This document shows, in pieces, positions 13,002 to 38,091 of a DNA stretch of 64,000 nt. The stretch comes from Nanobdellota archaeon (GTDB lineage: Archaea > Nanobdellota > Nanobdellia > Pacearchaeales > GW2011-AR1). The DNA is taken from assembly GCA_038045705.1 (NCBI GenBank), contig JBBSXO010000002.1, positions 25,557 to 89,556 of the forward strand. The letters run 5' to 3'. The translations under genes and the position numbers were made by a program. The notes under the pieces are model-generated. The model had not been told where the DNA came from. It saw only the letters and a list, made by a program, of their open reading frames with translations, and made no database searches. How positions within the stretch are numbered: position 1 is the first letter of the stretch; each line of letters begins with the position of its first letter.

Positions 13002-13658
13002 TTATCTATTTGATGATCTCTGAGTTGCTAAACTACAAGCGCATTTTAGTAAGAGATCACGGTTTGATTCAATACGTTTTTTAAGCCCGCCCATTCCATT
13101 AATTTCAGCATTTAAATATTCCTCACGATTAGCATATTCAATTGCAGCTTCTCTGATTCTTCCTTTATTAAGTAATTCGCGAGTCTTAGGACTATCTGCA
13201 AGATCTCCTCTATAAGCCATATCAACAAGAGCTTTTTTTCCATTCAAAGGGAAATTTTTAAAATCAGGAACAAGTCTTTGAGCAACCTCTAAATGTCTCT
13301 TTAAGTCAGCTAAAAACAAAATATTAACTTGTTTATCAGTTAAGAAAATTTTTCCGTTTTTTACTGAATCATAATCTACTCCTTCTAAAGCATCTTCAAA
13401 TGTTTTTTTGGATCTAGGTGCCCCAAGATAATGTCCTATCCCTATAGTTGGTTCATAAACTGTAGCAGAAGGATTAGCATCATATACCTTATTTCTTCTG
13501 CCCTCGAAACTCCCAGTATATTCTGCAAAGATTTGCATTTCATCAATCAACCTAAGTTCTACATTTGCCAGATCTTTTCTAAATAAATATTTTAATCCAA
13601 TAAATCCAACAGTAAAACCAGTCAATGCTAACAAAGATTTTTTTAATGTTTTGTGCAT
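13002..13658 (-). CDS. GH24 / phage T4-type lysozyme (muramidase) with N-terminal hydrophobic anchor
   Basis: FEGRRNKVYD...PTIGIGH catalytic segment, ALVDMAY, G..EAA.EY. Confidence 0.75.
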   Translation of the reverse strand: MHKTLKKSLLALTGFTVGFIGLKYLFRKDLANVELRLIDEMQIFAEYTGSFEGRRNKVYDANPSATVYEPTIGIGHYLGAPRSKKTFEDALEGVDYDSVKNGKIFLTDKQVNILFLADLKRHLEVAQRLVPDFKNFPLNGKKALVDMAYRGDLADSPKTRELLNKGRIREAAIEYANREEYLNAEINGMGGLKKRIESNRDLLLKCACSLATQRSSNR

Positions 13659-13765: not shown

Positions 13766-15490
13766 ATGAGGATACTTACATTACATTGCGACTATATCAA
13801 GTTCAAAGCTCTTAAAAAAGCAATAAAGAGCATAGAAGATTTATCTGAAGAAGAAAAAGAGTCTAAAGAAGTGAAAGAATGTCTTGTTATTTTAACTTCA
13901 ATAGAACAAGGAGACACAGAAAAAACAATCCATCAATTAGTAGAAGCGGTTGAAAAAACAGCAAAAGAAGTCAAAACAGATAAAATAGTACTATATCCTT
14001 ATGCACATCTGTCATCAAACTTAGCAAAACCACAAATAGCTTTAGAATTATTAAAAGAAGCAGAATCTCAATTAAGTAAAAAATTCAAAACAATTAGAGC
14101 TCCATTTGGTTATTATAAGGAATTTGAATTCAAATGCAAAGGTCATCCATTGGCAGAGTTAAGTAAGGAATTTAGGCAAGAAGACTCAGTAGAGACTAAA
14201 TCAAAAATGGTCTCGAAAGAAGAACCAATAGATTCTTCAAAATTATTAAATCAAATATCTCGTTCAAAGCTAGATACATCAAAACTAAAAGACAACGACC
14301 ACAGAATCCTAGGACAAAGACTTGACTTATTCAGTTTCAATGAAGTAGCTCCTGGAATGGTTTTCTGGCATAATAACGGTTTAACAATATATAATGAATT
14401 AGTGGGCTTCTGGAGAGATGAACAGAAAAAAGAGAATTATCTAGAAATAAAAACTCCTCAAATAATGGATTCAAAATTATGGAAAGTATCAGGTCATTGG
14501 GACAAATATAAAGAAAATAACTTTATCACAGATTATGAAGGCAGATCATTCCTTGTCAAACCAATGAACTGTCCTGGAGGAATGCTGGTCTTCAAAGCAA
14601 ACTCAAAATCCTACAGAGACTTACCTTTAAAAGTTTCAGAAATGGGGACAGTTCACAGAACTGAGCTTTCAGGTGTCATTAACGGACTGTTTAGAGTAAT
14701 ACAATTTACCCAAGATGATGCTCATATATTCTGCGCAGACGAACCTCAGGCAGAATTAGAGATATTAGAAGTAATAAAACTAATAAAAAGATTTTATGAA
14801 AAATTCAAATTAGAATTTGATCACGTAGAACTCTCAACAAGACCTGAAAAAAGAATAGGTTCTGACGAAATGTGGAATAATGCTGAAAGTTTGTTAGAAA
14901 AAGCATTAAAGAAAGCTAAGATTAAATATGGTGTAAAAAAAGGAGAAGGTGCATTCTATGGTCCAAAAATCGACTTTCACGTGAAAGACTCTTTAGAAAG
15001 AACTTGGCAGGTTTCAACCATACAGCTTGATTTTGCGATGCCCGAAAGATTCGAATTAGAATTCACAGATAAAGATAATCATCAAAAAAGACCAATAATG
15101 CTTCACAGAGTAATCTATGGTTCATTAGAAAGATTTATAGGCATTTTACTAGAGCACACAAACGGAGCTTTACCATTATGGTTATCTCCAAGACAAGTCA
15201 GAGTTATATCATTTACAGATAGAAATGATAAGGCAACTGAAAAACTAGCTCAAGAACTAAAAGAATTAATCCCATCAATAAGAATAGATACTGATACTCG
15301 TTCAGACACAGTTCAATCAAAGATCAGAGATGCAGAAATGCTAAAAGTAAATTATACATTAGTTGTAGGAGATAAAGAAGAAGAAAATGATACTCTAGCT
15401 ATAAGACCTAGAGGTGGAAAACCGCAATTTAATGTAAATAAAGATAAATTTGTAAAACAGTTAAAAGAAGAATTATCCAAAAGACTATAA
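13766..15490 (+). CDS. thrS: Threonine--tRNA ligase
   Basis: Archaeal N-terminal editing domain (LYPYAHLS, APFGYYK), KPMNCPG, FTQDDAH, AFYGPKID, HRVIYGSLERF. Confidence 0.97.
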   Translation: MRILTLHCDYIKFKALKKAIKSIEDLSEEEKESKEVKECLVILTSIEQGDTEKTIHQLVEAVEKTAKEVKTDKIVLYPYAHLSSNLAKPQIALELLKEAESQLSKKFKTIRAPFGYYKEFEFKCKGHPLAELSKEFRQEDSVETKSKMVSKEEPIDSSKLLNQISRSKLDTSKLKDNDHRILGQRLDLFSFNEVAPGMVFWHNNGLTIYNELVGFWRDEQKKENYLEIKTPQIMDSKLWKVSGHWDKYKENNFITDYEGRSFLVKPMNCPGGMLVFKANSKSYRDLPLKVSEMGTVHRTELSGVINGLFRVIQFTQDDAHIFCADEPQAELEILEVIKLIKRFYEKFKLEFDHVELSTRPEKRIGSDEMWNNAESLLEKALKKAKIKYGVKKGEGAFYGPKIDFHVKDSLERTWQVSTIQLDFAMPERFELEFTDKDNHQKRPIMLHRVIYGSLERFIGILLEHTNGALPLWLSPRQVRVISFTDRNDKATEKLAQELKELIPSIRIDTDTRSDTVQSKIRDAEMLKVNYTLVVGDKEEENDTLAIRPRGGKPQFNVNKDKFVKQLKEELSKRL

Positions 15491-15736
15491 TTATAACACA
15501 AATACCCAATATCTATCTTTACGCTCTTCAAGTGAATAAAAACTTAAAGTCTTGTTATTTGGCAAAACAAATGTTCTTTTTAAATAAGGATCTAAATCAA
15601 TCCTTTCAAGACCTAAGACATCACAAAATGCCCTCTGTATTTCAGAGTATGATCTATAACCACTAGACCACCACCCTAACAACCTTCTTTTTAGTACAGG
15701 AATTTCTCTTCTAGTTATCAAAGGTTCATCTTCCAC
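15491..15736 (-). CDS. Orphan hypothetical protein
   Basis: Short ORF, GTG start. Confidence 0.4.
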   Translation of the reverse strand: MEDEPLITRREIPVLKRRLLGWWSSGYRSYSEIQRAFCDVLGLERIDLDPYLKRTFVLPNNKTLSFYSLEERKDRYWVFVL

Positions 15737-15800
15737 AATAATACCATGAAAATAGTATTATTAAACTTAATTTATTATAACCCATTTATACATTAATTAT

Positions 15801-16337
15801 TCAATCATCTCTATCTTGAGATCTACAGTATTCTCCAACAGATTTTATTGCGTTCCTTATTCTTCTACAAACTTCCTCCATTTTCAATCCAAGTAATTCA
15901 GAAATTTCTTTATAATCTACGCCATTAAGCGCAAGAGAAAGAGCTTCACCGCGACGACGAGGAATCAGGGGTAATACTCTTCTTACTTTTTCAAATTCTT
16001 CCCGTTCAATAATTTTATCTAATGTATTAGGAGCCTCTACATAACAAATCAAACTTGGATTTTTTAATGATTTTAATCTTTTCGCATTGCGGAAGTAATC
16101 CATACAAGAATTAGTAAAAATAACATATGCGAGTCCTCGTAAAGTTCTAGGTATTAATTTACCATCTCTGGCAAGAACAAGTAATTTATAAGCAGTATCT
16201 TGAAAAAAGTCTTGAGCTACATCTAAAGAAAGATTATATCTCATACGACCCAAATTAACTAGGAGTCGTTCCAAATAGACTAATGACTCAGCTAAATCAG
16301 TATCTTTTTCTTCAATAGTTTCATCAAAACGAACCAT
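15801..16337 (-). CDS. ECF-type (sigma-70 group 4) sigma factor-like protein
   Basis: Region 2: AQDFFQDTAYKLL...YVIFTNSCMDYFR; region 4: LIPRRRGEALSL..NGVDYKEISELLGL....V.RRIRNA. Confidence 0.75.
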   Translation of the reverse strand: MVRFDETIEEKDTDLAESLVYLERLLVNLGRMRYNLSLDVAQDFFQDTAYKLLVLARDGKLIPRTLRGLAYVIFTNSCMDYFRNAKRLKSLKNPSLICYVEAPNTLDKIIEREEFEKVRRVLPLIPRRRGEALSLALNGVDYKEISELLGLKMEEVCRRIRNAIKSVGEYCRSQDRDD

Positions 16338-16441
16338 GACTTAAAAATTATAAATTTACTTTTAAAACTATCTCCTGTGGTAAAAATTGGCGACATATTT
16401 ATATATCAATTATTCAATAACTAAATATCAAGAGGCTCATA

Positions 16442-17077
16442 ATGAAAATTCAACCATACGTCCAAAAACTTCAAACATCTGAAAAATATAAAAAGTTTAT
16501 AAAAGAAAACGCAGAATCATTTCTAGTCGCAGGATTCTTTGTTTTAGATTATGAGGCTGGGATGAATGTACATCAAATAGATTATTATGTACCATCGAAA
16601 AGACAAGTTGCAGCATTTAATTTAGACGGGGAAGTCGAAGTTCGTCTTTTAGATATGATGCATAAAGAAAAAAAACCTGAAAAATTAGATATTAGAACAA
16701 AAGTAGATCTTGACGCATTAAAAGGAATTCTTGAAGATGAGATGAAGAACAGAAATATAACTGAAACTATAAAAAAATGTGTTGCAGTTATTCAGATGGT
16801 AGATGGCAAAAAATTATGGGTATTAAATTGTGTCCTTTCAGGCATGGAAATATTAAAAGCCCATGTAGATGATGAATCAAGAACAGTTTTAAAAATGGAA
16901 AAATCTTCAATGCTTGACTATGTAAAAAAAATGCCTGCTATGCCTCAACAAAGTCCTAAAGCAAATAAAGAAACTCTTCAAAAACAAATTGAGCAATTAA
17001 ATAAATTAAAAGAACAATTAGAGAATGAAAAAGCCCAATTAGATAAGCAAGGAAAGTCTAGTGAAAACGTAGAATAA
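16442..17077 (+). CDS. Hypothetical protein with C-terminal coiled-coil
   Basis: Long ORF with typical codon usage. Confidence 0.7.
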   Translation: MKIQPYVQKLQTSEKYKKFIKENAESFLVAGFFVLDYEAGMNVHQIDYYVPSKRQVAAFNLDGEVEVRLLDMMHKEKKPEKLDIRTKVDLDALKGILEDEMKNRNITETIKKCVAVIQMVDGKKLWVLNCVLSGMEILKAHVDDESRTVLKMEKSSMLDYVKKMPAMPQQSPKANKETLQKQIEQLNKLKEQLENEKAQLDKQGKSSENVE

Positions 17078-17661: not shown

Positions 17662-18180
17662 TTAAGGCACATAAGTATCACAAATAACTTGTTGTCTTGT
17701 AGGATTACAAATAGTATCTGATTTTCCTACAACTGCACTAACAGTTACAGACAAAGGAGTGTAATCAAGATTCCTAACTGCAGCTTCAACAGAGTTGTAT
17801 TCAACTAACCTAGAGTAATTTGTATCAATATTAATATCTAGTATGTCTAGTTCAACTGGACTCTCAACATGCAAATTGCCAATATCATCTGTAACTGAAA
17901 ATCTCAAATCATTAATATCTTTACCACCCGGAAATCTTTCAACATTAATAAGAATTCCATCACCAGTAGTACCAGGTAATCCGATACTCTGAAGAAATTC
18001 TCTTGTGAAAATAAGACAATTATTTACTTCTAAATCTATCCCAAAACATAAAGAAGAATCTCCAGAAGTGTTTTTATTAACATTTCCAAGGTAAGCTCTT
18101 AAAAATATAGATGTCCCTACAACAGCAATAAGAATAAGAATAATATAAGCAACAACAGAACCAACGCCATTTCTTTTCAT
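17662..18180 (-). CDS. Type IV pilin-like protein
   Basis: Class III-like signal KRNG|VGSVVAYIILILIAVVG. Confidence 0.7.
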   Translation of the reverse strand: MKRNGVGSVVAYIILILIAVVGTSIFLRAYLGNVNKNTSGDSSLCFGIDLEVNNCLIFTREFLQSIGLPGTTGDGILINVERFPGGKDINDLRFSVTDDIGNLHVESPVELDILDINIDTNYSRLVEYNSVEAAVRNLDYTPLSVTVSAVVGKSDTICNPTRQQVICDTYVP

Positions 18181-18185
18181 ACTAA

Positions 18186-18926
18186 TCATCTAACTATTGT
18201 TATAGACCCTCCAGTATTAGGATTAACTTGACAACAAACAGTTTTATTTCCAGGAGGTAATATTCCATTTATTAATTGACGAGTAATTGGATTAATTGGA
18301 TAAGATTGATCCATTCCATTATAACACTCACTGTAATTAACAGGGTGTTGACAACAATTCCCAGCCCTATTACTATTAGAATATGTTCCTCCAGTATATG
18401 TATTATTAGACACATTTCCAAGTGGAGGGGTCATAGTTACAGAAGGACATCTTACAGAGTTGGATGCAATAGGGCAGACATCTTTATTTTTTCCAATTAA
18501 AGCAGCAACACGTAATAAATGAGGTTCTCCCGCCTGAACAGGTATAGCATCATAAGGATCTGTAAATTGTAAACTCTGTAATTCTCCCAACCCAATTGCA
18601 TTTAAATTTCTATCATAAGTACCCTTTCCCCCAAGCCAATTTTCAAATATAAATCTTAGACCTGTTACATTTCCTTGTCCAACACTTCTTTTAACAAGAA
18701 CATTTGCTTCATAATAACCGCCTCCAATTTGATAATTACATGCCCCATAAGTCTGACAGTTCATAAGTTCAAGATTAACTGTCAAGCAATCAGGATCAAC
18801 AATTTCACTAGAAGCGTTTTCTATATTTTTTGAAATAAATGCCCAAAGTAACGCTACTCCTATAATTGCCCCAAGAGTTATTAGTGCAACAGAAACAACA
18901 GAACTAATACCTCCCCGATCAATCAT
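18186..18926 (-). CDS. Type IV pilin-like protein with Cys-rich C-terminus
   Basis: RGG|ISSVVSVALITLGAIIGVALLW; VKRSVG motif shared with paralogs. Confidence 0.7.
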   Translation of the reverse strand: MIDRGGISSVVSVALITLGAIIGVALLWAFISKNIENASSEIVDPDCLTVNLELMNCQTYGACNYQIGGGYYEANVLVKRSVGQGNVTGLRFIFENWLGGKGTYDRNLNAIGLGELQSLQFTDPYDAIPVQAGEPHLLRVAALIGKNKDVCPIASNSVRCPSVTMTPPLGNVSNNTYTGGTYSNSNRAGNCCQHPVNYSECYNGMDQSYPINPITRQLINGILPPGNKTVCCQVNPNTGGSITIVR

Positions 18927-19064
18927 CAATAAAAATATAATTCCATTATTTATAAACAATACCTCGCCATATCCATAACTATATATAATCTCAAATGACG
19001 TTAATTTAAGTTATAAGACAAATAAGGCTTTGAAAATCGCATATTTCTTTATAATCAAAGCTAA

Positions 19065-19295: not shown

Positions 19296-19748
19296 CTAAC
19301 AATCAATAGGTTGTGTAGTTATCTGACACAATTGTCCACCACTAACAACGACTGTATTAACACTTATAGCGTCAAATGTTGAAGAAGTTGTACCTACAAC
19401 TGTCAATGTACTAAGCTCAGATAAAGTAGTGTCACTAGCAACAGGAGTTGTTACAACTTTTTGAGTCTCTTCATTAGCATTTTCAAATACAAGATCTACA
19501 GAATCAAATTCTCCGGCTCCCGGGTTACGTTTCACTACGACATTCCATTGACCTTCAGTACTGCCAGGTACACAACTAATCGGCTCCACACTAACTGTAA
19601 AACAATCAGCTTGAATTCCAGCAGCGCCCTTATCAATTGTTGGTTTTACAACAGACCATATAACAGCAATTCCGACAATTACCAGAAGTACTATGAGGAC
19701 ATTAGCGACAACTTCACTCACTCCTTTTTTTGAATTAAACATTCTCAT
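19296..19748 (-). CDS. Archaeal type IV pilin
   Basis: KKG|VSEVVANVLIVLLVIVGIAVIW; GGAGG RBS upstream. Confidence 0.85.
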   Translation of the reverse strand: MRMFNSKKGVSEVVANVLIVLLVIVGIAVIWSVVKPTIDKGAAGIQADCFTVSVEPISCVPGSTEGQWNVVVKRNPGAGEFDSVDLVFENANEETQKVVTTPVASDTTLSELSTLTVVGTTSSTFDAISVNTVVVSGGQLCQITTQPIDC

Positions 19749-37987: not shown

Positions 37988-38091
37988 GCGCGGGTAGTAT
38001 AGTGGTTAGTATACGACGTTGCCACTTTTTCCCTTTAGTAAGAAGAGAAAGCAAAGACGTTGTGGCCCGGGTTCAATTCCCGGCCCGCGCA
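37988..38091 (+). tRNA. tRNA-Gly(GCC) with 32-nt intron at 37/38 (38025..38056)
   Basis: GCGCGGG/CCCGCGC acceptor, CGACG-TTGCCAA-CGTTG anticodon arm after splicing, CCGGG-TTCAATT-CCCGG; TTGC/GCAA BHB helix. Confidence 0.93.

What the first reader, a model, noticed from the sequence alone, without database searches (positions are those of the whole stretch)
15801..16337. Bacterial ECF-type sigma factor in an archaeal chromosome
Seen: recognisable sigma region 2 (AQDFFQDT..KL; YVIFTNSCMDYFR) and region 4 HTH (GVDYKEISELLGL....V.RRI) in 178 aa. It has an archaeal TATA-like TTTAAA upstream, lies among clearly archaeal genes and has no adjacent anti-sigma. Known: archaeal RNA polymerase initiates with TBP/TFB and does not use sigma-70 factors. 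Inference: either repurposed as a DNA-binding regulator, or an effector acting on the RNA polymerase of a bacterial host or prey.
Basis: partly seen in the sequence, partly recalled or inferred. Interest (0 to 1): 0.75.

Follow-up and report, generated by a model that had tools for sequence, protein, structure and literature searches.

The report
ECF sigma gene in DPANN archaeon
A tiny groundwater archaeon really does carry an intact bacterial-style (ECF) sigma-factor gene, but such genes were already reported in these archaea in 2021; this copy sits in an optional, very fast-changing slot of the chromosome and its function is still unknown.

Summary
ORF 15801-16337(-) encodes 178 aa that pass the curated sigma70-ECF model (TIGR02937, 52.3 bits, cut-off 42.9). 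The model folds into sigma2 plus sigma4 domains, and its best PDB matches are ECF sigmas. The genome is archaeal: one Rpo1, one Rpo2, TBP and TFB, and no bacterial alpha-CTD. Contigs from four non-source runs bridge both junctions.

It is not new. Castelle et al. 2021 reported sigma-70 genes without anti-sigmas in DPANN. This scan had already noted the phenomenon 79 times on other DNA. The model passes its cut-off in 131 of 301 genomes of the phylum.

New here:
- The gene is an optional cassette in the ThrRS-neighbour spacer. It is present in 5 of 15 informative genus genomes and 0 of 28 loci in other genera.
- The slot's allele groups share only 19-36% identity, while the flanks are 78-89% identical.
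- The cassette is bracketed by a specific 22-nt direct repeat.
- Sister alleles give dN/dS of about 0.26-0.28.

The mechanism is untested. My best guess is an accessory archaeal transcription regulator.

The parts
15801..16337 (-). ECF-type sigma-70 family gene, 178 aa
   Evidence: ORF. TIGR02937 scores 52.3 bits against a cut-off of 42.9. AF2 pLDDT is 86.1. The top Foldseek PDB hits are ECF sigmas.
16062..16304 (-). sigma2-like domain (residues 12-92; helices 12-34, 38-57, 63-92). It includes the region-2.2-like motif D43-x-x-Q46-D47 and N76/D80/R83.
   Evidence: Residues 33-87 match Sigma70_r2 only weakly, at 12.4 bits.
15807..16025 (-). sigma4-like helix-turn-helix domain (residues 105-177; helices 105-124, 127-137, 142-149, 153-177)
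   Evidence: Sigma70_r4_2 scores 23.6 bits over residues 116-165. AF2 model. E. coli sigmaE region 4 (2h27_D) matches with TM 0.77 on the target and rmsd 2.3.
16360..16367 (-). TATA-like TTTTAAAA, centred about 26 nt upstream of the ATG. This suggests a leaderless archaeal transcript.
   Evidence: Sequence. A TTTAAA at the same spacing precedes the alleles of G016, G003 and G002. The role is inferred, not shown.
15784..15805 (+). Left copy of the 22-nt direct repeat bracketing the cassette. It overlaps the stop codon of the sigma gene.
   Evidence: 20 of 22 identical to the right copy, spacing 613 nt. Only these 2 matches with <=3 mismatches occur in the window, 0.01 expected, and 0 of 100 shuffles reach 2.
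16397..16418 (+). Right copy of the 22-nt direct repeat. It lies in the promoter region of the neighbouring 211-aa gene, and that region is conserved in sigma-less relatives.
15491..15736 (-). 81-aa fast-evolving small ORF downstream. It is not a sigma partner.
   Evidence: Found in 5 of 17 genus genomes with this query. In G013, G009 and G012 it sits next to the 211-aa gene with no sigma gene. No Pfam, PHROG or PADLOC family matched.
16442..17077 (+). Conserved 211-aa gene of unknown function, transcribed divergently. It serves as the anchor of the slot.
   Evidence: Found in 16 of 17 genus genomes at 62-89% identity. No family passed a cut-off.

Best explanation
Shown. This is a genuine, intact group-4 (ECF-type) sigma-70-family gene resident in the chromosome of a small-genome (0.84 Mb) DPANN-type archaeon. 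That archaeon has only archaeal transcription machinery in view. The gene belongs to a sigma-like family that is common in the phylum and has several paralogues in this genome.

This copy is an optional single-gene cassette of about 613 nt. It sits in the divergent promoter region between a small ORF next to ThrRS and a conserved 211-aa gene. A specific 22-nt direct repeat that duplicates the neighbour's promoter segment brackets it. Within the genus the slot is empty in most species. Where it is filled, it holds sigma alleles that are almost unrelated in sequence.

Inferred. The gene is transcribed from its own archaeal TATA box as a leaderless mRNA. It acts as a non-essential, lineage-specific transcription regulator of the archaeon itself. 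The sigma4 helix-turn-helix would bind DNA. The sigma2 domain keeps the D-x-x-Q-D/E patch that in bacteria contacts the beta' clamp helices (recalled knowledge), and would provide a protein contact. The universally conserved clamp coiled-coil of Rpo1 is the obvious candidate for that contact. No anti-sigma controls it. Control would be by transcription, and by gain and loss of the cassette.
For: Identity. TIGR02937 scores 52.3 bits against a cut-off of 42.9. phmmer against the PDB finds RpoE 9n9q_C (E 4.5e-5) and M. tuberculosis SigE. The AF2 model and Foldseek agree. The protein carries the majority residue at 29 of the 42 columns that are at least 45% conserved among the 66 database hits. 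These include A41, D43, Q46, D47, N76, D80, R83, P126, L135, G139, E144, G150, V156 and A163.

Host.
- TBP and TFB are present.
- There is a single Rpo1 and a single Rpo2.
- Residues 1-330 of Rpo1 score 378 bits to Pyrococcus/Thermococcus Rpo1N and only 82-90 bits to bacterial beta'.
- No alpha-CTD was found.

Residency. Composition is host-like. Both junctions are bridged in four non-source runs.

Cassette.
- The direct repeat is specific to this locus.
- A sigma-like ORF lies in the ThrRS-to-211-aa-gene interval in 5 of 15 informative genus genomes: G000, G016, G003, G005 and G001. In G001 it is a 100-aa remnant.
- In G005 the gene lies on the other side of the small ORF.
- 10 of 15 genomes have none.
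- 0 of 28 informative loci in other genera of the family have one.

Selection and rate.
- G000 sigma is 24-27% identical to G016/G003/G002, while the 211-aa flank is 78-79% and ThrRS 84% identical.
- The four slot allele groups are 19-36% identical to each other.
- dN/dS among G016, G003 and G002 is 0.26-0.28, against 0.02-0.09 for the flank.

The sigma2 patch is kept in the family. Among 18 ECF-sized archaeal sigma-likes that aligned in sigma2, 17 have D/E at position 43, 12 have Q46 and 14 have D/E47. This holds even in paralogues that have lost sigma4. One of the 18 comes from the high-GC island.

Family-wide presence. The model passes its cut-off in 17 of 41 relatives and 131 of 301 genomes of the phylum. 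That count includes the unpublished G283 and G284. At E<=1e-8, 0 of 4 archaeal control genomes match.
Against: - There are no expression data, and no RNA run holds the locus.
- The gene is dispensable: it is absent from the slot in 10 of 15 genus genomes.
- Its extreme divergence could equally mean weak constraint.
- For the G000 allele itself no relative closer than about 30% identity exists among 1.84 billion representatives or 5.8 billion clusters. Its own dN/dS therefore cannot be measured; comparisons with the other alleles are saturated at 0.57-0.97.
- The Pfam domain models score below their gathering thresholds.
- Two usually hydrophobic or aromatic consensus positions are alanine here (F49->A, L70->A).
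- The Rpo1 clamp is of ordinary archaeal sequence, with no sign of adaptation to a sigma.
- The mapping of D43/Q46/D47 to the beta'-contact residues of sigma70 is recalled from the literature, not computed here.
Confidence: 0.55

Rival explanations
1. True sigma function on the archaeal polymerase. The protein docks through sigma2 on the Rpo1 clamp coiled-coil and directs, or redirects, initiation at a private set of promoters. This would add a sigma-type layer on top of TBP/TFB.
For: The D-x-x-Q-D/E patch is retained in this protein and in most archaeal sigma-likes, including sigma2-only paralogues. The clamp coiled-coil is homologous across domains: bacterial beta' aligns to residues 186-328 of this Rpo1 at 82-90 bits. 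The family is widespread and multi-copy in a lineage poor in other regulators. Two sigma-like paralogues lie directly downstream of EF-1alpha in the rpoB-rpoA-S12-S7-EF2-EF1a cluster of the same contig.
Against: TBP and TFB are present and complete. The clamp sequence is ordinary archaeal. The gene is optional. No promoter motif of the ECF kind was seen upstream (visual inspection only). There is no experimental precedent that I know of.
Confidence: 0.12
2. Near-neutral passenger. The cassette is a selfish or accidental import that is tolerated, turns over quickly and does nothing useful for the cell.
For: It shows presence/absence polymorphism, and at least four unrelated alleles occupy one slot. 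G001 holds only a 100-aa remnant. A direct repeat typical of an insertion event brackets it. Loose ends of co-occurring contigs fall exactly at 15806, the edge of the left repeat, and at 16367, in two runs of one study. Rates are far above those of the flanks.
Against: The 178-codon frame is open in 32% GC DNA. 29 of 42 consensus columns are kept. dN/dS is 0.26-0.28 in the sister alleles. Composition is fully host-like. The family persists across the phylum.
Confidence: 0.22
3. Effector against a bacterial partner. The protein is delivered to a bacterium and reprogrammes its RNA polymerase.
For: It keeps the bacterial two-domain sigma architecture. A membrane-anchored lysozyme-family gene lies about 2 kb away (13002-13658, PF00959 at 26.8 bits), which hints at contact with peptidoglycan-walled cells.
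Against: Neither the sequence nor the model shows an obvious export feature. The gene is not linked to any secretion genes in the window. Rapid allele turnover would not preserve a fit to a conserved bacterial core enzyme.
Confidence: 0.05
4. Binning or assembly artefact: a bacterial fragment wrongly joined to archaeal DNA.
For: None found. Two other sigma hits of this genome do lie on a 55-60% GC island, so foreign DNA does exist in the assembly.
Against: Independent contigs from four non-source runs bridge both junctions with 0 differences. GC and GC3 equal those of the neighbours. Synteny is shared with G016 and G003. The archaeal RNA polymerase genes are on the same contig.
Confidence: 0.01

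Closest known systems
Sigma-70-class genes of DPANN archaea (protein family fam00359; Castelle et al. 2021, Front Microbiol, PMC8204110; one passage read)
   Same: These are sigma-70 family genes on archaeal contigs, prevalent in Woesearchaeota-type DPANN, with no anti-sigma and TBP/TFB/TFE present, and the mechanism is stated to be unclear. All of this was reproduced here.
   Different: Whether this protein is in fam00359 could not be checked, because Supplementary Table 3 is closed. The passage I read does not mention the slot polymorphism, the repeat-bracketed cassette or the evolutionary rate.
Bacterial ECF (group 4) sigma factors, e.g. M. tuberculosis SigE/SigH/SigL (9m9e_F, 6kop_F, 6dv9_F), E. 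coli sigmaE (6jbq_F, 1or7_B, 2h27_D) and P. aeruginosa AlgU (6in7_B)
   Same: It has the two-domain sigma2-linker-sigma4 architecture at about 180 aa. The region 2.2 and 2.4 signature residues and the sigma4 HTH are conserved.
   Different: Identity is only 15-22% in the Foldseek PDB matches and about 30% in the sequence search. The host has no bacterial core enzyme in view. There is no co-transcribed anti-sigma. The promoter spacing is archaeal.
Sigma-like domains that no longer act as sigma factors, e.g. PhyR (3t0y_A, Foldseek rank 48)
   Same: This is a precedent for a sigma2-sigma4 fold reused for protein-protein signalling rather than for initiation.
   Different: PhyR carries a receiver domain and binds NepR. 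Neither feature is present here. The match is weak (E 0.068).
Archaeal TFB / eukaryotic TFIIB
   Same: It is the functional analogue of sigma. In relatives, the 300-330 aa ORFs that weakly match positions 132-161 of the sigma model look like TFB by size. That assignment was not checked.
   Different: It has a different architecture (Zn ribbon plus two cyclin repeats). This genome's own TFB is a separate 329-aa gene on contig C9.

Membership tests
Sigma-70 family, ECF/group 4 (TIGR02937) | Whole-protein score above the curated cut-off of the family model | tested here: met
   52.3 bits against 42.9, E 4.8e-14, model positions 7-161 of 165.
Sigma-70 family, ECF/group 4 (TIGR02937) | sigma2 domain (regions 2.1-2.4) | tested here: inconclusive
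   Pfam Sigma70_r2 scores only 12.4 bits (GA 24). However, the AF2 helices 12-92 superpose on ECF sigma chains, and D43, Q46, D47, N76, D80 and R83 match the consensus.
Sigma-70 family, ECF/group 4 (TIGR02937) | sigma4 helix-turn-helix domain | tested here: inconclusive
   Sigma70_r4_2 scores 23.6 bits, just under GA 25.7. The fold matches sigmaE region 4 (2h27_D, TM 0.77 on the target).
Sigma-70 family, ECF/group 4 (TIGR02937) | No sigma1.1 and no sigma3 domain (two-domain architecture) | tested here: met
   178 aa, in two helical bundles joined by a short disordered linker at 93-104.
Sigma-70 family, ECF/group 4 (TIGR02937) | Binds core RNA polymerase (beta' clamp helices, beta flap) | not testable with these tools
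   No bacterial core enzyme is in the genome. Binding to the archaeal enzyme needs an experiment.
Sigma-70 family, ECF/group 4 (TIGR02937) | Directs recognition of -35/-10 promoter elements | not tested
   No regulon or motif analysis was possible. No transcription data exist.
Sigma-70 family, ECF/group 4 (TIGR02937) | Typical (not obligatory) co-transcribed anti-sigma factor | tested here: not met
   Both neighbours occur without the sigma gene in relatives. zf-HC2 was not found in the genome, which is 91.5% complete.
DPANN sigma-70 genes (fam00359, Castelle et al. 2021) | Sigma-70-class gene on a contig with archaeal marker genes, mis-binning excluded | tested here: met
   rpoB, rpoA, S12, S7, EF2 and EF1a are on the same contig. 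ThrRS carries the archaeal editing domain. Junctions are bridged in independent runs.
DPANN sigma-70 genes (fam00359, Castelle et al. 2021) | Listed member of the protein family fam00359 | not testable with these tools

The most novel reading that the evidence does not exclude
The sigma-like proteins of DPANN archaea still use their conserved region-2.2 patch to dock on the clamp coiled-coil of the archaeal RNA polymerase. These cells would then run a hybrid initiation system: TBP/TFB plus exchangeable sigma-type specificity factors. The factors would be carried on small cassettes that are swapped in and out of chromosomal hot spots. Their extreme divergence would reflect diversifying selection, for example in conflicts with viruses or hosts, rather than decay.
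Probability: 0.12. Interest if true: 0.85.

Novelty: new member of a known kind. Interest (0 to 1): 0.3.

Why it matters
Sigma factors are the textbook hallmark of bacterial transcription initiation, and archaea are not supposed to use them. A sigma-like family present in about 44% of sampled genomes of one archaeal phylum is therefore an open mechanistic question, first raised in 2021.

This locus does not answer that question. It does add three concrete handles:
- The gene behaves as an exchangeable cassette with defined repeat borders.
- The family keeps the surface patch that in bacteria touches the polymerase clamp, even in copies that have lost the DNA-binding sigma4 domain.
- The clamp of this organism is almost identical in that segment to the clamps of model archaeal polymerases. 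A binding test with existing purified enzymes is therefore practical.

Tried and rejected
1. Complex prediction, sigma-like protein (alignment A1) with residues 1-330 of this genome's Rpo1 (alignment A2). The result was 'no answer', score 0.00 in both runs, and the controls were not folded. This is evidence neither for nor against binding.

2. Expression. The look-up of sequencing runs listed no RNA holder, so expression is untested.

3. The 81-aa downstream ORF as a hidden anti-sigma or partner. Rejected. It sits next to the 211-aa gene without any sigma gene in G013, G009 and G012 and in four more genus genomes. It matches no family.

4. A close donor or sister for the G000 allele. None was found.
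- Only the protein itself appeared among 5.8 billion clusters with the word-based search at near lengths.
- The next best among 1.84 billion representatives has E 4.4e-8 and 30% identity.
- Named members of the top clusters are bacterial ECF sigmas such as Labilibaculum.
- Relatives of hit P0003 lie in bacterial MAG records (L087, L088).
- So there is no specific affiliation, and I built no tree because the signal is too weak.

5. Viral or defence origin. The only matches are a weak one to a phage sigma family (phrog_1740, 28.3 bits) and no PADLOC match at all.

6. The same direct repeat around the alleles of G016 and G003. Not found.

7. Literature. Searches found only Castelle et al. 2021 on archaeal sigma genes. 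A 2026 preprint on sigma-domain evolution (10.64898/2026.10.08.757525) mentions archaea only in connection with TFIIB, in the passages shown. The word 'archaea' does not occur in PMC7671368. I saw no supplements.

8. dN/dS of the G000 allele against the other slot alleles. The comparison is saturated (pN 0.47-0.53) and uninformative.

9. My first hmmalign table was misnumbered because of trimming. I discarded it and replaced it.
Full report
THE GENE. The quoted motifs are all in the translation.

It passes the curated NCBIfam model for the ECF branch of the sigma-70 family. TIGR02937 scores 52.3 bits against a cut-off of 42.9, E 4.8e-14, covering model positions 7-161 of 165. The narrower Pfam domain models fall short of their gathering scores: r4_2 23.6 against 25.7, and r2 12.4 against 24.

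phmmer against PDB sequences finds an RpoE (9n9q_C, E 4.5e-5) and M. tuberculosis SigE. An AlphaFold2 model on a 70-row alignment has mean pLDDT 86.1. It shows two helical bundles, residues 12-92 and 105-177, joined by a disordered linker. Foldseek against the PDB returns ECF sigma chains at the top with probability 1.00. TM-scores are low for the whole chain because the two domains are posed differently. Region 4 alone matches at 0.77 (2h27_D).

At the 42 alignment columns that are at least 45% conserved among the 66 database hits, the protein carries the majority residue at 29. These include D43, Q46 and D47 (the region 2.2 signature) and N76, D80 and R83. The hits were selected by similarity to the query, so this count is somewhat flattering.

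THE HOST. The window is G000:C2:25557-89556 of an 844,273-base, 10-contig genome. It is 91.5% complete with 0.45% contamination. Several results mark it as archaeal:
- ThrRS carries the archaea-specific editing domain.
- One tRNA match spans 104 nt, implying an intron.
- The genome has TBP and TFB.
- It has a single Rpo1 and a single Rpo2.
- It has no bacterial alpha C-terminal domain.
- The polymerase genes are on the same contig as the sigma gene, in the usual rpoB-rpoA-...-S12-S7-EF2-EF1a cluster.
- Residues 1-330 of Rpo1 score 378 bits to Pyrococcus/Thermococcus Rpo1N and 82-90 bits to bacterial beta'.

I call the organism DPANN-type from its genome size, its groundwater source and the literature. 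The tools gave no taxon name.

NOT AN ARTEFACT. GC (0.33) and GC3 (0.16) of the gene equal those of its neighbours. Logan contigs of four runs not marked as a possible source, from two studies, cover the locus with no differences. They cover 14092-15843, 15663-16208, 15655-16033 and 15900-16748. Both ends of the gene are therefore joined to their neighbours in independent assemblies.

ALREADY KNOWN. Castelle et al. 2021 (PMC8204110) state that DPANN genomes, Woesearchaeota above all, encode sigma-70-class factors (fam00359). They say mis-binning was ruled out, no anti-sigma factors were found and the mechanism is unclear. I read only that passage.

My own counts agree. The model passes its cut-off in 17 of 41 relatives of the order and in 131 of 301 high-quality genomes sampled across the phylum. 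At E<=1e-8 none of the 4 archaeal control genomes matches. That tally includes the unpublished G283 and G284. This scan's notebook holds 79 earlier findings of the same phenomenon in at least 71 genomes.

PARALOGUES. The genome has seven places that match the model, but only this one passes the cut-off.
- Two sigma-like genes lie in tandem directly downstream of EF-1alpha (C2:2707-3258 and C2:2128-2637). They match only sigma2.
- They are 77-80% identical to their position-mates in G012, where EF-1alpha is 95% identical. They are only 26-33% identical to those of G009 and G013.
- Two further hits (C5:84409-84933 and C6:5972-6304) lie on a foreign high-GC island, described under IN PASSING.

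THE SLOT. This part is new for this locus.

The order here is ThrRS(+), an 81-aa ORF(-), sigma(-), a conserved 211-aa gene(+), and a CYTH gene(-). I searched the 211-aa gene in all 17 genus genomes. It is present in 16, and 15 of those have enough upstream sequence to judge. The contents of the interval are as follows:
- A sigma-like ORF lies between ThrRS and the 211-aa gene in 5 of 15: G000, G016, G003, G005 and G001.
- In G005 it lies on the other side of the small ORF.
- In G001 only a 100-aa sigma2 remnant is left.
- 7 of 15 have only the small ORF.
- 3 of 15 have ThrRS abutting the 211-aa gene.
- G002 has an orthologue of the G016 allele at a contig end, but adjacency is not shown.

In other genera of the family, 0 of 28 informative loci have a sigma-like ORF within 1.5 kb upstream. 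One further locus had only 51 nt upstream. The same HMM detected the G005 and G001 genes, which were not in its training alignment, and this serves as a positive control.

The four allele groups are 19-36% identical to each other. G000 against G016/G003/G002 is 24-27%, while the 211-aa flank is 78-79% and ThrRS 84% identical.

The G000 cassette is bracketed by a 22-nt direct repeat: 15784-15805 and 16397-16418, 20 of 22 identical, spacing 613 nt. Only these two copies occur in the window at <=3 mismatches. That compares with 0.01 expected, and 0 of 100 shuffles reach two. There is one more copy at 3 mismatches in the whole genome. The right copy lies in the promoter region of the 211-aa gene, which is conserved in sigma-less relatives. 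The G016 and G003 alleles have no such repeat.

In two runs of one study, contigs that match up to 15806, the edge of the left repeat, continue with unrelated sequence. Others do the same after 16367. This is a weak hint that co-occurring strains carry something else at the same junctions.

I read all this as repeated gain, loss or replacement of small sigma cassettes at a hot spot. Simple vertical divergence does not fit as well.

SELECTION. The only alleles close enough to compare are G016, G003 and G002, at 58-69% identity. They give Nei-Gojobori dN/dS of 0.26-0.28 at dS of about 0.9-1.1. The flanking gene gives 0.02-0.09. That is purifying but relaxed selection, not decay. For the G000 allele itself no comparison is possible.

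MECHANISM. Nothing here shows what the protein does. The points I weigh are these:
- It has its own TATA-like box, centred about 26 nt upstream of the ATG. The same spacing recurs in the unrelated alleles of three relatives. This fits a leaderless archaeal transcript.
- No anti-sigma is adjacent, and no zf-HC2 was found in the genome.
- Among 18 ECF-sized archaeal sigma-likes of this order that aligned in sigma2, D/E43 is kept in 17, Q46 in 12 and D/E47 in 14. This includes paralogues without sigma4.
- From recalled literature on E. coli sigma70 (D403, Q406, E407), these are solvent-exposed residues that contact the beta' clamp helices. Their retention in a cell without a bacterial core enzyme suggests that a protein contact is still under selection.
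- The homologous Rpo1 clamp coiled-coil is the obvious candidate for that contact. This step is inference.

My ranking is:
- Accessory archaeal regulator, with or without a polymerase contact: 0.55.
- Near-neutral passenger: 0.22.
- True sigma-type initiation factor on the archaeal enzyme: 0.12.
- Effector against a bacterial polymerase: 0.05.
- Artefact: 0.01.

IN PASSING. Contig C5 from about 71.6 kb to its end, and contig C6 from its start to about 14.1 kb, are 55-60% GC in a 31-32% GC genome.
- At the C5 junction lies an intron-bearing tRNA (Rfam 47 bits, L085:3469-3597), followed by a tyrosine integrase.
- The 11 nt at the tRNA's 5' end recur at L086:14074-14084, exactly at the GC drop in C6.
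- Cargo includes ParB, a Ser/Thr kinase, TPR proteins, an ECF-like sigma, a cyclodipeptide synthase, a DNA methylase and a 1334-aa NB-ARC/TPR protein.
- The integrase has relatives at 23-42% identity in 50 of 300 other genomes of the class. The five loci I looked at are mostly AT-rich, and three carry a tRNA nearby.
- So one route by which sigma genes enter these genomes, on tRNA-integrating elements, is visible in this very assembly. I could not check the island with reads.

VERDICT. The phenomenon is already published and was found repeatedly by this scan. This copy is a new, very divergent member with an informative cassette-like setting, and its function remains open.

Noticed in passing
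Outside the window: G000 contig C5 about 71,468 to its end at 85,135 (L085:3469-17136) plus contig C6 1-14,084 (L086): A roughly 27.6-kb island of 55-60% GC sits in a 31-32% GC genome. It starts at an intron-bearing tRNA followed by a tyrosine integrase. The 11 nt at the tRNA's 5' end repeat exactly at the far GC transition. Cargo: ParB, Ser/Thr kinase, TPR proteins, an ECF-like sigma, a sigma4-only ORF, cyclodipeptide synthase, DNA methylase, and a DUF4062-NB-ARC-TPR protein of 1334 aa. Related integrases (23-42% identity) occur in 50 of 300 other genomes of the class. It was not checked with reads, and the two contigs are not shown to be joined.
   Followed up: partly
Outside the window: G000:C2:2128-3258 (minus strand): Two tandem sigma2-only sigma-like genes lie directly downstream of EF-1alpha, at the end of the rpoB-rpoA-S12-S7-EF2-EF1a cluster. 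The same arrangement occurs in G012 (L013). The genes are 77-80% identical to G012 but only 26-33% identical to their position-mates in G009 and G013.
   Followed up: partly
window 15806 and 16367 (runs X4, X5): Contigs of co-occurring populations match up to 15806, the edge of the left direct repeat, or up to 16367, the TATA region of the sigma gene. They then continue with unrelated sequence of 19-35 and 204 letters respectively. This hints at alternative contents or contexts of the cassette. There is one contig per run, and both runs are from one study.
   Followed up: no
window 13002-13658 (-): A 218-aa protein has an N-terminal hydrophobic segment and a phage-lysozyme/endolysin domain (PF00959 26.8 bits; phrog_7). 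A peptidoglycan hydrolase is unexpected in an archaeon and may point to contact with bacteria.
   Followed up: no
window 15491-15736 (-) and its relatives (L051-L054): This small ORF of 79-110 aa next to ThrRS has no family and is itself very fast-evolving. It is 25-39% identical between genus members whose flanking gene is 79-89% identical. G013 and G009 are the exception at 75%. It is missing in 3 of 15 genus loci.
   Followed up: partly
window 13766-15490 versus L051/L052/L054: The C-terminal 340 aa of ThrRS in G000 are 84% identical to G016 but 68% to G013, G009 and G012. The adjacent 211-aa gene shows the opposite pattern: 79% to G016 and 86-89% to G013, G009 and G012. This suggests a recombination breakpoint in or near the slot.
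   Followed up: no
window 37988-38091 (+): A tRNA matched by Rfam over 104 nt (53.1 bits) but not called by ARAGORN, presumably because it contains an intron.
   Followed up: no
window 17662-18959 and 19296-19748 (-): Three ORFs have N-termini that look like archaeal type IV pilin/class III signal peptides (my reading of the sequences). None matches a Pfam family.
   Followed up: no
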